From NCBI GenBank assembly GCA_964016885.1, contig CAXHJY010000995.1, positions 1 to 64,000 on the forward strand: a DNA stretch of 64,000 bases, read 5' to 3'. Positions 1,085 through 57,705 of the stretch are shown here, in pieces. How positions within the stretch are numbered: position 1 is the stretch's first letter; every line of letters starts with the position of its first letter. The notes under the pieces were generated by a model, which did not search any database, was not told where the DNA came from, and saw only the letters and a list, made by a program, of their open reading frames with translations. A program made the position numbers and the translations under genes. Source of the DNA: Eledone cirrhosa. Taxonomy: Eukaryota.

Positions 1085-1235
1085 ATAGTAATAATAATAA
1101 ATTTGAAGACTAAAATCCCAAGAGGCTCGATAAGGATAAATATATATCAAATATATAAGAACCGTAGAGCAAATATTTATTAAATAACAGATTAAACTTT
1201 GCTTAAACTTTAATCTGTTATTTTAATAAATAAAT
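1085..1235. mobile_element. Penelope-like tail + fold-back mini-element (family 1)
   Basis: Near-identical to the tail of 1871-2063. Short inverted repeat aataacagattaaa / tttaatctgttatt, flanked by (TA)n. Confidence 0.6.
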
Positions 1236-1870
1236 AAATATATATATATATATAGGTGTGTTGGTGAATTCGCTTAATGTTTATAGCGTTTAATCTTAGG
1301 TTTGGTTTAAAACGAAATCCCGATAGAAGAGCGATGGTGGTGAGGGAGGGGGGGGGGGGGGGCCCACCATCCATTCCAAATCGCCATAATTTACTGCGTT
1401 TCATAGCTAAACCGTCATTTTCCTCTTCTAGATGTCTCACGTTGGCTAGCAGGTGAAATATCGAGCTTTAGGTAAAATATATTGTGAAATATTAGCGAAC
1501 ACTTCGATTACCCCCCCCCCACCGTCTTAGCTGATGTCGATCTATATATTGGTCCTTCGGATATGCAATGAGATCAATAAAAATATTACACACACACACA
1601 CACACACACACTCACACACACAGGTTTTTTTTTTTCAAAAGGGTTTTGAGTTAGTTGACCCTCAAATCCTTTAATTATCCGTTCATCAATCTTTTGTTTC
1701 GTTCATGGCTTGGAACTGGCACACACACAGACATGTGATGTTTGGGTGGGCTATCGTTATTTATTTAGCTTAATGTGTATATAGTATAGTCTAATGTCTT
1801 GTTTGTGTGTCTTATAGGCATACTATATATATATATATATATATATATATGTATATATATGTGTGTGTGT

Positions 1871-2063
1871 ATAGTAATAATAATAAATTTGAAGACTAAA
1901 ATCCAAAGAGGGCTCAATAAGGATAAATATATATCAAATATATAAGAACCGTAGAGCAAATATTTATTAAAATAACAGATTAAAGTTTAAGGTTAGTTTC
2001 AGAAGATCCCGTTAAGGGTGAAAGCAGCTATTCTTTGCTTAAACTTTAATCTGTTATTTTAAT
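1871..2063. mobile_element. Penelope-like tail + fold-back mini-element (family 1) carrying a hammerhead-like motif
   Basis: 26-bp inverted arms 1966-1991 / 2038-2063 around a hammerhead-like core, plus a ~95-nt unpaired tail. Microsatellite flanks. Confidence 0.65.
1995..2045 (+). ncRNA. Type I hammerhead-ribozyme-like motif (variant core)
   Basis: Stem I agttt/aaact; core CAGAAGA; stem II t-ccc-gttaa-ggg-t; GAAA; stem III gca/tgc; NUH triplet CTT. Departs from consensus at U4 and at the stem II closing pair. Confidence 0.55.
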
Positions 2064-2081
2064 ATATATATATATATATAT

Positions 2082-3572
2082 CATCATATGGATTTACATG
2101 TATTTGTATATATATATATATATATATATATATATATCATATGGATTTACATATATTTGTATATATATATATATATATATATATATATATCATATGGATT
2201 TACATATATTTGTATATATATATATATATATATATATCATATGGATTTACATATATTTGTATATATATATATATATATATATCATATGGATTTACATATA
2301 TTTGTATATATATATATATATATATATATCATATGGATTTACATATATTTGTATATATATATATATATATATATATATATATCATATGGATTTACATATA
2401 TTTGTATATATATATATATATATATCATATGGATTTACATATATTTGTATATATATATATATATATATCATATGGATTTACATATATTTGTATATATATA
2501 TATATATATATATATATCATATGGATTTACATATATTTGTATATATATATATATATATATCATATGGATTTACATATATTTGTATATATATATATATATA
2601 TATATATATATATATATCATATGGATTTACATATATTTGTATATATATATATATATATATATATATATATATATATATATCATATGGATTTACATATATT
2701 TGTATATATATATATATATATATCATATGGATTTACATATATTTGTATATATATATATCTATCTATCTAAGGCGGGTAAAATTCCCGAGATCCATGGACG
2801 AGTTCTCTCCAGCGGTCTCTGTCCCTCATTATCGCTGCCATATTCTGCATCTCCAACAGACCAGTGTCTGTCCTTAGGGCATCAACATATGTTAACCTTG
2901 GTCTTCCTCTTCTAGTGTGTCCATGTAGGGGCTCCCAAAGGAGCACTGAGTGCAATGTCAACTCTGGATGTCGGTGAGCATGTCCAGCCAACCTCAGTCT
3001 CCTCTGTGTCACTTTTGAGCTGACTTTTGTATATATATATATATATATATATATATCATATGGATTTACATATATTTGTGTATATATATATATATATATA
3101 TATATCATATGGATTTACATGTATTTGTATATATATATATATATATATATATATCATATGGATTTACATATATTTGTATATATATACATATATATATCAT
3201 ATGGATTTACATATATTTGTATATATATACATATATATATCATATGGATTTACATATATTTGTATATATATATATATATATATCATATGGATTTACATAT
3301 ATTTGTATATATATATATATATATATATATATCATATGGATTTACATATATTTGTATATATATATATATATATATATATATATATATATCATATGGATTT
3401 ACATGTATTTGTATATATATATATATATATATATATATATATATATAATATGGATTTACATATATTTGTATATATATATATATATATATATATCATTTGG
3501 ATTTACATATATTTGTGTATATATATATATATATATATATATATATATAATATGGATTTACATGTATTTGTA
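2082..3572. repeat. Compound minisatellite CATATGGATTTACATATATTTG + variable (TA)n, split by an RTE fragment
   Basis: More than 25 units with a constant 22-bp core and variable TA tracts. Confidence 0.95.
2757..3026 (-). mobile_element. RTE-clade LINE 3' end (RT C-terminus + TAGA tail)
   Basis: [15 protein letters not shown]...[23 protein letters not shown]...MRDRDRWR. A second copy lies at 20062-20190. Confidence 0.85.
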
Positions 3573-3786
3573 TGCATTTGCATGTAAGGATGATCAAAAT
3601 ATATAAGTGAATGTGTGGGTATCTATCGATATATATGTATTTATCTATGGTATGTATATCGATATATGCATTGTGTGTGTGTCGTCATAATTGTACGTCC
3701 GTTGTTCAAAGATTGCATGGGTTGGACGAGACCTGAGGACAGCATCTCTCCATTTTTTTTTTTTCTGTTTTTTTTTCTGTTCTTAT

Positions 3787-56284: not shown

Positions 56285-56598
56285 CAGTGTACCCCCGTGG
56301 TCCCGGTTATTCCCAGAATTTTCCTCAGAACCTAACTAATAATTGTTTGTGGAAATCACCGCATATTCGCGGAATTGTAAATATCTTCTGCCATCTTTTT
56401 ATTTTTATGGCGTTTTTTTTCAGAGCAATATATATTTTTTTCACGTTTTTTAATACTAAATTATTAACAACAATAATATAGCGTATTTGCTGGCCTATAT
56501 TTAATGTTATATATTGACATAGGTATTTTTATGGACCACGTTCAATATTCACGGGTTCTCTAGGAATGTAACCCCCCATGAACACTGTGGGACAACAG
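56285..56598. mobile_element. Tigger/pogo-type MITE
   Basis: ta|cagtgtacccccg ... gggacaacag|ta; body matches 11874. Confidence 0.7.
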
Positions 56599-56906
56599 TA
56601 TTTGAGAAATTATAACAGTAGCCTTTCTCATGGTTGTTGTTCCTTAAAGATTGAAACTGTTTTATCTTTGAATAAAATATATTCTGATAATTTTTCATAT
56701 ATATATATATATATATATATATATATATATATATATATATATATATATATATATATATATATATATATATATATATATATATATATATATATATATATAT
56801 ATATATATATATATATATATATATATATATATATATATATATATATATATATATATATATATATATATATATATATATATATATATATATATATATATAT
56901 ATATAT

Positions 56907-57365
56907 GGAGGCACATGGCTTAGTGGTGAGAGCATTGGTCTTGCAATCGAAAGGTTGTGAGTTCAATTCTCAGACCGGGTGATGTGTTATTTCCTTGAGC
57001 AAGACACTTTATTTCACATTGCTCCAGTTTACTCAGCTGTAGAAATGAGATGATAGGGACTGGGGTCCCTATCATTCCACTGCAAAGTGGTCGTGGAGGT
57101 GCCACGGCAAAAAAGCACCCAGCACTCACTGAAAATGAGGTTGGTGTTGGGAAGGGCATCCAGCTGTAGAAATGAGATGATAGGGACTGGGGTCCCTATC
57201 ATGCCACTGCAAAGTGGTCGTGGAGGTGCCACGGCAAAAAAGCACCCAGCACTCACTGTAAATGAGGTTGGTGTTAGGAAGAGCATCCAGCTGTAGAAAT
57301 CAAGCCAGAATCAGTTCCCATCCCACCCTTGCAATCAGGGAAAAGTGGACGCATGATGATGATGA
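56907..57365 (+). mobile_element. SINE family A with an internal 127-bp tandem duplication
   Basis: cagctgtagaaat recurs at 57034, 57161 and 57288. Confidence 0.9.
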
Positions 57366-57604
57366 TAGATATATATATATATATATATATATATATATAA
57401 AAAAGAAAATTTTGCTCTACATATTCGCATGCCAACACAAGAGCAAGAATGAAGTGTTTCATTCTACTGACATGGCTATAAAATTGAGGCTTGGTTGCAA
57501 AATTGCAAACGGATCGAATGTTATTATTAATATTAAAAAAACTATATATATATATATATATATATATATATATAATGTGTGTGTCTGTGTCCCGGGTTCA
57601 GTCG

Positions 57605-57705
57605 GGGGTAACCACAGTAAGGTACTCAATACATTAGTAGAGTGTATACAACAAATGAAACAGTTCTAGTCCTGTAGAAGCCGTTTCTTTATCAAATTTG
57701 TTTAT
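57605..57705. mobile_element. Family-3 mini-element (tail joined to an inverted body)
   Basis: ggtaaccacag..tactcaatacattagtagag + aatgaaacagttctagtcctgtagaagcc, homologous to 10280-10430. Confidence 0.6.

What the first reader, a model, noticed from the sequence alone, without database searches (positions are those of the whole stretch)
1085..57705. Superfamily of ~100-300-bp ORF-less tail + fold-back elements in (TA)n, probably non-autonomous Penelope-like (retrozyme-like) elements
Seen: several distinct sequence families share one architecture, an inverted repeat of about 14-78 bp fused to an unpaired 60-135-nt tail, mostly embedded in (TA)n or (CA)n. Copies lie at 1085, 1871, 5665, 6270, 10280, 13598, 15421, 15604, 24920, 25892, 28865 and 57605, with partial pieces at 9168, 9233, 21436, 25580 and 44450. 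They lack TIRs at both ends, TSDs and Pol III boxes, so they are neither MITEs nor SINEs. Established: Penelope-like elements (PLEs) carry hammerhead ribozymes in their pseudo-LTRs, often insert with an inverted 5' segment, and some clades target microsatellites. Inference: this is a diverse, high-copy PLE-dependent mini-element system that repeat annotation would likely leave as unknown or simple repeat.
Basis: partly seen in the sequence, partly recalled or inferred. Interest (0 to 1): 0.75.

Follow-up and report, generated by a model that had tools for sequence, protein, structure and literature searches.

The report
Stub insertions of Hydra-clade Penelope elements
These small hairpin-shaped repeats are the shortest leftover ends of full-size, protein-coding Penelope-type jumping genes that land in TA repeats, not a separate class of mini-elements, and the point where most of them stop likely marks where the parent gene's RNA begins.

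Summary
The anatomy is real, but these are not independent non-autonomous elements. Four of six families (A, B, D, E) run upstream in longer genomic copies into an ORF with Hydra-clade Penelope-like motifs. A and D have intact 713- and 827-codon frames; the A model folds closest to telomerase RT. C and F parents were not reached. The pieces are head-to-head pairs of 5'-truncated pLTR ends: 137 of 143 pairs carry the tail on one arm only, and 110 of 143 have (TA)n on both sides. In 41 pairs the tailless arm is the longer, which one snapped-back cDNA cannot make; two primings fit, as shown in vitro for another PLE. The same form scales to over 10 kb. Arm 5' ends pile up (119 of 251 within 13 nt, 11 in the 13 nt upstream) at an initiator-like A, likely the RNA start; untested, no RNA reads. 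Hammerheads range from complete (D, E) to degenerate (A, B). The architecture is published for PLEs, and this scan found it before on other DNA of this and other genomes. Low-to-moderate interest.

The parts
1085..1232 (.). Family A stub: tail arm 1085-1200 (sense on -), tailless arm 1197-1232 (sense on +); IR 1174-1200/1205-1232; lacks the hammerhead core
   Evidence: 92-100% to the pLTR of intact parent L281
1871..2062 (.). Family A stub: tail arm 1871-1991 (-), tailless arm 1992-2062 (+) starting 3 nt before the pile-up A and carrying the variant core CAGAAGA at 2000
5665..5955 (.). Family D stub: 77-bp perfect arms meeting at the palindromic stem III of the hammerhead; tail on the + arm
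   Evidence: 100% over 83 nt to coding copy L302
6270..6484 (.). Family E stub: tail arm 6272-6410 (-) starting at the pile-up A, with core CTGAGGA; tailless arm 6418-6484 (+)
   Evidence: EN ORF about 170 nt upstream in L192/L195
9168..9222 (-). Family C single decayed arm
   Evidence: 81% to 10282-10334
9233..9366 (+). Family B decayed tail arm
   Evidence: 75%
10280..10430 (.). Family C stub: tailless arm 10280-10335 (-), tail arm 10334-10427 (+); IR 37 bp
13598..13742 (.). Family B (B3-like) stub, tail on left, IR 27 bp, in (CA)n
15421..15565 (.). Family B (B3-like) stub, IR 30 bp, tail on right
15604..15812 (.). Family B1 stub: both arms start at the pile-up A; short duplication at the junction; tail on left
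21436..21560 (+). Family B decayed single arm with tail
   Evidence: 73%
24917..25020 (.). Family A head-to-head join without IR: tailless arm 24917-24977 (-, starts at the pile-up A, has core) plus the last 40 nt of the tail (+)
25580..25752 (.). Family F degenerate stub: tailless arm (-) with a CTGATAA core at 25621, tail arm (+)
25892..26090 (.). Family B1 stub, 60-bp arms plus 78-nt tail; type example
   Evidence: EN end about 900 nt upstream in L211
28865..29046 (.). Family B3 stub, IR 51 bp, tail on left
44443..44506 (-). Family A single tailless arm
57590..57710 (.). Family C head-to-head join without IR: tail piece (-) plus tailless arm (+)
5343..5553 (.).
   Evidence: tblastn E 4.8e-4 to the family E protein

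Best explanation
The elements are the shortest insertion products of protein-coding Hydra-clade Penelope-like retrotransposons: two 5'-truncated copies of the element's pLTR end lie head to head in (TA)n, likely written by the element's reverse transcriptase into both strands of a cut target from two fixed start sites on the RNA, and most likely stopping where the RNA begins. Shown here: collinearity of the stubs with the 3' UTR/HHR/5' UTR junction of coding copies (A, B1/B2, D, E); the tail is the stretch just before the ATG in tandem copies; one-sided tail; (TA)n flanks; continuous size range; sharp pile-up of arm 5' ends. Taken from published work on another PLE: cleavage and extension of both strands and two internal RT start sites that define the tail (PMC11167929). 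Inferred: that the pile-up is the RNA 5' end (run-off of cDNA primed near the 5' end of a transcript that starts in the pLTR), that long copies come from priming in the downstream unit of read-through RNA, and that host repair joins the two cDNAs. The stubs are then mostly dead-end products.
For: Parents: A extends into a GIY-YIG-type C-terminus and intact 713-codon frames in 4 of 4 fetched loci; 150 of 150 scored EN matches are 96-100% identical. B2 and B1 reach an EN end; E does; D has an 827-codon frame and a 10.6-kb head-to-head pair. A and D carry RW[KR], DKT, CxCX5C, IVY..YIG, CxxC, CxH and YRDD, the Hydra diagnostics of PMC8557442. The A model (pLDDT 89) has telomerase RT as its four best PDB matches (E 3e-8 to 2e-7). 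In L281 the tail runs straight into the 5' UTR and ATG, with units 3259 bp apart. Pairs: 137 of 143 have exactly one tail; the tailless arm is more than 15 nt longer in 41 of 137, the tail arm in 8. Arms agree at subfamily-diagnostic sites: B 26/304 mismatches vs 52% when shuffled, C 10/83 vs 50%, E 11/53 vs 38%. Pile-up: 119 of 251 incidental arms end in S-2..S+10, 11 in S-15..S-3, 28 in S+11..S+23. S is an A after two pyrimidines in all seven references; it lies 5-8 nt before the core in A, C, D, E but 41-47 nt after it in B1/B2, so it does not track ribozyme structure or the cleavage site.
Against: No RNA data: no RNA holder was listed, so the start-site reading is untested. S was chosen after looking at the junctions. 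An extra G opposite a cap was not established: 14 of 40 vs 57 of 274, p=0.066, and the comparison is biased in its favour. Eight arms end 3-6 nt upstream of S. C, F and B3 have no coding parent in hand. Pfam gave no RT or GIY-YIG hit for A or D, and sequence searches of the PDB found nothing, so the endonuclease call rests on motifs. The 143 pairs include loci fetched by searches for these families. Concordant arms fit one RNA copied twice, but also snap-back in the 88 near-symmetric pairs.
Confidence: 0.85

Rival explanations
1. Non-autonomous, retrozyme-like mini-elements: short ribozyme RNAs with their own master copies, mobilised in trans by PLE enzymes.
For: Very uniform 198-bp B1 copies (40 of 40 scored hits full-length at 95-100%). 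No ORF reached for C, F, B3. Non-autonomous PLEs and retrozymes are published. An earlier unchecked note reports a 310-bp retrozyme-like family elsewhere in this genome.
Against: A, B1, B2, D, E are collinear with coding elements. The uniformity reflects a best-hit search. Junctions vary (21 of 37 distinct, and those with longer untemplated inserts are singletons). C extends about 330-500 nt upstream and then into a microsatellite-rich stretch like D's 3' UTR. None of 24 C tail ends inspected ran on into another C unit.
Confidence: 0.1
2. Single-cDNA snap-back: one cDNA primed at the tail end folds back and copies itself, making the inverted arm.
For: Arms share diagnostic variants; 88 of 137 one-tailed pairs are symmetric within 15 nt; some apices sit at palindromes, e.g. 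5665.
Against: In 41 of 137 pairs the tailless arm holds sequence absent from the tail arm, up to about 740 nt more, which self-copying cannot supply. One cross-family pair has a tail arm of E and a tailless arm of C (L316).
Confidence: 0.12
3. Same PLE stubs, but the pile-up marks a splice acceptor or an RT stall at the ribozyme, not the RNA start.
For: AG at S/S+1 after a pyrimidine tract in A, B and C references. In D. virilis Penelope the intron end maps to the 5' end of helix I (PMC4209133), and its start site is 46 bp before that 75-bp intron (PMC2377424).
Against: Only 3 incidental arms end at S+2 against 16 at S and 18 at S+1. No shared upstream exon appears at junctions. D has no AG there. 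In B the stop lies inside stem II, unlike the other families.
Confidence: 0.25
4. DNA transposon or Helentron/MITE-type elements with subterminal hairpins.
For: Short size, hairpins, TA targets.
Against: Extension leads to an RT-fold ORF with a C-terminal GIY-YIG-type domain in four families; ends are ragged at the 5' side and fixed at two 3' sites.
Confidence: 0.01

Closest known systems
Hydra clade of C-terminal EN+ Penelope-like elements (Craig et al. 2021, PMC8557442; includes Hydra-1_Obim)
   Same: Single ORF of about 710-810 aa with RWK-like, DKT, CxCX5C, CxxC and CxH motifs and no CCHH; (TA)n targeting; type I hammerhead in the 3' end; inverted 5'-truncated copies and a one-sided tail.
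   Different: These are other families than Hydra-1_Obim (compared by eye with the supplement text). Tails are about 65-140 nt rather than 30-40. D has a 3.7-kb microsatellite-rich 3' UTR. A and B have degenerate ribozyme cores. Copy number is far higher than the curated examples suggest.
PAc (Poseidon of Anolis) in vitro mechanism (Frangieh et al. 2024, PMC11167929)
   Same: Both strands cleaved and extended; RT starts at two internal RNA sites whose spacing is the tail; AT-rich targets; hammerhead cleavage not needed for insertion.
   Different: Different clade; there the start sites are inside the ORF, here they are in the 5' UTR before the ATG. The parts read do not discuss where cDNAs stop.
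Dispersed minimal hammerheads from truncated PLEs (Cervera and de la Pena 2014, PMC4209133)
   Same: Single motifs and opposite-strand pairs 100-700 bp apart, attributed to truncated PLEs.
   Different: No junction mapping or parent tracing in the Results section read.
Animal non-LTR retrozymes (Li et al. 2026, bioRxiv 10.64898/2026.07.22.740005)
   Same: Non-coding, PLE-pLTR-related, type I hammerhead.
   Different: Retrozymes are head-to-tail tandem monomers, each with a complete ribozyme; these are head-to-head stubs collinear with coding parents, often lacking part of the core.

Membership tests
Penelope-like elements (EN+) | Telomerase-like RT in a single ORF | tested here: met
   A: intact 713-codon frame, YRDD, best folds TERT; D 46% identical to A. 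Pfam gave no RT hit.
Penelope-like elements (EN+) | C-terminal GIY-YIG endonuclease | tested here: met
   IVY..YIG motif at residue 587 of A, 706 of D, also in B; motif-level only, no Pfam hit
Penelope-like elements (EN+) | Tandem/pLTR organisation, inverted 5'-truncated copy, one-sided tail | tested here: met
   L281 tandem, 3259-bp unit; 137 of 143 pairs one-tailed
Hydra clade | RWK-like motif, DKT for DKG, CxCX5C linker, CxxC and CxH, no CCHH | tested here: met
   A and D against the definition; B and E only partial fragments; absence of CCHH read by eye from the translations
Hydra clade | Insertion into (TA)n | tested here: met
   110 of 143 pairs flanked on both sides; background 13.6% per side
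Hydra clade | Canonical type I hammerhead in the 3' end | tested here: inconclusive
   Stems I-III plus core in D 19 of 25 and E 24 of 37 copies; F 1 of 10, C 3 of 59; A has a CAGAAGA core, B none passing in 25. Rfam gave no hammerhead hit at gathering score on 4 loci; one search's list was swamped by microsatellite matches.
Hydra clade | Phylogenetic placement with published Hydra RTs | not tested
   Only compared by eye with the supplement alignment
Non-LTR retrozymes | Head-to-tail tandem monomers each with a complete ribozyme | tested here: not met
   Head-to-head pairs; 24 C tail ends run into microsatellite or flank, not a next unit
Non-LTR retrozymes | Non-coding, independent of a collinear ORF-bearing parent | tested here: not met
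   A, B1/B2, D, E are ends of coding elements; C, F, B3 unresolved
Non-LTR retrozymes | Short or circular self-cleaved RNA | not testable with these tools
   No RNA run listed
Dfam/Repbase families | Already catalogued | not testable with these tools
   No such library is on hand

The most novel reading that the evidence does not exclude
Most insertions of Hydra-clade PLEs in this genome are 'strong-stop'-like run-off cDNAs: the enzyme primes twice just downstream of the RNA's own 5' end, so on the order of 10^5 hairpin stubs record each family's transcription start site to within a few bases and show that two-ended priming is the normal route of integration. Some families (C, F) may have lost their ORF and persist as stubs.
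Probability: 0.55. Interest if true: 0.5.

Novelty: new member of a known kind. Interest (0 to 1): 0.3.

Why it matters
For annotation: roughly 54 such sites per 620 kb (about 2.6 x 10^5 genome-wide for five families, a rough extrapolation) should be filed as Hydra-clade PLE ends, not as unknown repeats, SINEs or MITEs, and Pfam misses the parent proteins. For mechanism: PLE integration is poorly understood. The stubs give thousands of natural products supporting two primings at two fixed sites, and a testable prediction of each family's RNA start. Family A still has intact frames, so it offers a system for an in vitro test.

Tried and rejected
Rfam: whole-window scan was swamped by microsatellite-miRNA matches; no hammerhead at gathering score on 4 loci. 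The repeat finder was uninformative because of (TA)n. The Pfam GIY-YIG genome search returned mainly Neptune-like PLEs, which are not the parents; it led to family A only through a neighbouring insertion. A DNA search with the AT-rich D segment returned nothing (common words are skipped), while a pattern found 3268 matches. Two patterns meant to extend C each matched one already-held locus; 14 further C loci did not reach an ORF. Hammerhead cleavage as the cause of the 5' stop was rejected: the arms contain the core, which lies 5' of the cleavage site. Cap-G signature inconclusive. Single-sequence folding of ribozymes and tails was not significant except F (z -2.0). My first ribozyme descriptor found nothing on single reference copies; run over all copies it did. 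No RNA holder listed; laying contigs showed no usable empty-site allele. Sequence searches of the PDB were empty. The protein atlas was unreachable.
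Full report
OBSERVATION. The window is contig C1022 of a 3.0-Gb genome. An earlier scan note calls it an octopus genome; I did not test that. All 17 coordinates hold dispersed repeats. 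Ten of the 12 main copies have a significant inverted repeat of 25-77 bp (scores 20-77, shuffle maxima 8-12). 24920 and 57605 have none and are head-to-head joins of different parts of one family; 25580 is a complete degenerate hairpin. The copies form six families, A-F.

GENOME-WIDE. The 25892 element gave 2385 candidates; the 40 scored were full-length at 95-100%. In the 30 loci fetched, both ends sit in (TA)n and the apex varies. In 62 unselected 10-kb stretches there were 54 sites of families A-E (B 21, C 14, A 11, D 5, E 3), about 2.6 x 10^5 genome-wide as a rough extrapolation.

PARENTS. Following the longest arms upstream reached coding sequence. Family A leads into a C-terminal IVY..YIG domain. 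A search with that domain scored 150 of 67,548 candidates, all 96-100% identical, and 4 of 4 loci fetched for long frames hold an intact 713-codon frame. In L281 two units lie 3259 bp apart, and the 'tail' runs directly into the 5' UTR and ATG. B2 (193 exact pattern matches) and B1 reach a related EN end; E does so about 170 nt upstream of its ribozyme. D (3268 exact matches) has an 827-codon frame, a 3.7-kb microsatellite-rich 3' UTR (74% between two copies) and a head-to-head pair spanning 10.6 kb whose apex is inside the ORF. For C, F and the B3 subtype no ORF was reached.

WHAT THE PARENTS ARE. A and D carry RW[KR], DKT, CxCX5C, CxxC, CxH and YRDD and are 45-46% identical. These are the diagnostics of the Hydra clade, which targets (TA)n (PMC8557442; parts 1, 2 and 4 of 10, passages, and supplement part 2 plus search hits read). 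That supplement lists an octopus family, Hydra-1_Obim, which by eye is a different family. Pfam and PDB sequence searches found nothing. 1176 of 8000 scored candidates were homologues at E<=1e-20. A model built on 25 sequences (pLDDT 89) matched telomerase RT best (ranks 1-4, E 3e-8 to 2e-7), as expected for a PLE.

ARCHITECTURE. Across all loci then held, including those fetched by family searches, 143 same-family head-to-head pairs were found: 137 with one tail, 4 with none, 2 with both; 110 with (TA)3 on both sides against 13.6% background. In 41 of 137 the tailless arm reaches more than 15 nt further 5' than the tail arm, in 8 the reverse, and 88 are near-symmetric. One cDNA copying itself cannot give the first class. 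Arms of a pair agree at diagnostic sites (B 26/304, C 10/83, E 11/53 mismatches; shuffled 52%, 50%, 38%; A had no such sites), so they usually come from the same source lineage; one clear cross-family pair exists (L316). This fits the in vitro result that a PLE protein cuts and extends both strands and starts RT at two internal sites whose spacing is the tail (PMC11167929, parts 1-2 of 4 read). Inverted truncated copies with an optional tail are described in PMC8557442, and opposite-strand ribozyme pairs from truncated PLEs in PMC4209133 (abstract and Results read).

WHERE ARMS STOP. Of 251 arms in loci not fetched for their own family (window included), 119 end in a 13-nt bin starting 2 nt before a position S, 11 in the 13 nt upstream, 28 in the 13 nt downstream, and 27 extend more than 50 nt upstream. 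Of the 119, 81 abut a detected inverted partner, 13 a microsatellite and 25 other sequence, some of it partner arms below threshold. Among the first 100 D pattern matches, five pairs meet within 3 nt of S. S is an A after two pyrimidines in all seven references (initiator-like; consensus recalled, not from a call). It is 5-8 nt before the core in A, C, D, E but 41-47 nt after it in B1/B2. I infer an RNA start and run-off. I chose S after seeing junctions; the cap-G test, prompted by note e1-9941261, was inconclusive (14/40 vs 57/274, p=0.066); and a splice acceptor remains a rival given D. virilis Penelope (passages of PMC2377424 read), though only 3 arms end at S+2 and no shared exon appears.

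RIBOZYMES. Complete type I folds were found in D (19 of 25) and E (24 of 37), rarely in F (1 of 10) and C (3 of 59), not in B (0 of 25); A carries a CAGAAGA core. Many window stubs lack part of the core. Activity was not tested.

ARE STUBS TEMPLATES? 37 B1 hairpins show 21 junctions; the commonest (10 copies) is the one in the query used to select them, and junctions with longer untemplated inserts are singletons. Retrozymes are defined by tandem monomers (bioRxiv 10.64898/2026.07.22.740005; part 1 of 5 and passages read, supplements not seen), which these units did not show. No RNA run was available.

NOVELTY. New families of a known clade with a known insertion form. Four literature searches listed no paper whose title or opening abstract reports the pile-up, but the library is partial and Dfam/Repbase could not be searched. 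A recent octopus repeat annotation (PMC13282606; part 1 of 3 and passages read, supplements not opened) lists 31 recently active PLE families and may hold these. Earlier unchecked notes of this scan reached the same reading on other DNA of this and other genomes; they are not counted as support.

VERDICT. Real feature; PLE origin right; non-autonomous system not supported for four of six families. Interest 0.3.

Noticed in passing
window 5343-5553: Fold-back made of two ORF-internal pieces of another Hydra-like family: a head-to-head pair that lacks pLTR ends.
   Followed up: partly
L316:4797-5593; L319 about 5300-5840: Head-to-head joins of arms from different families (E tail arm with C tailless arm; an A arm next to C upstream sequence), suggesting two RNAs can serve one cut site.
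   Followed up: partly
window 24487-24527 and 18970-19380: 20-bp hairpin at the end of a separate repeat of about 400 bp, found 5 times in 400 kb of random DNA.
   Followed up: no
window 3785-4124, 20331-20665, 25241-25558, 44078-44417, 48594-48919, 56907-57364: Young repeat family of about 330 bp (90-97% identical), SINE-like; a tRNA-like head of similar sequence scored in L324.
   Followed up: no
window 6760-8217, 33923-40302, 53175-54132: A 43-bp array (34 copies, 99%), a 6.4-kb TA-rich satellite and a 48-bp array.
   Followed up: no
L071-L100: [quoted passage not shown]
   Followed up: partly
L302:5800-9480 and family C upstream (L312): Hydra 3' UTRs filled with kilobases of (TA)/(TG) microsatellite, so these elements probably also spread microsatellite and new targets.
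   Followed up: no
L001-L030 flanks; window 15421-15812: Stubs of different families nest side by side in the same (TA)n tract.
   Followed up: partly
family D, e.g. L063, L172: Hammerhead with a loop of about 110 nt in stem II but intact core and stems I and III.
   Followed up: partly
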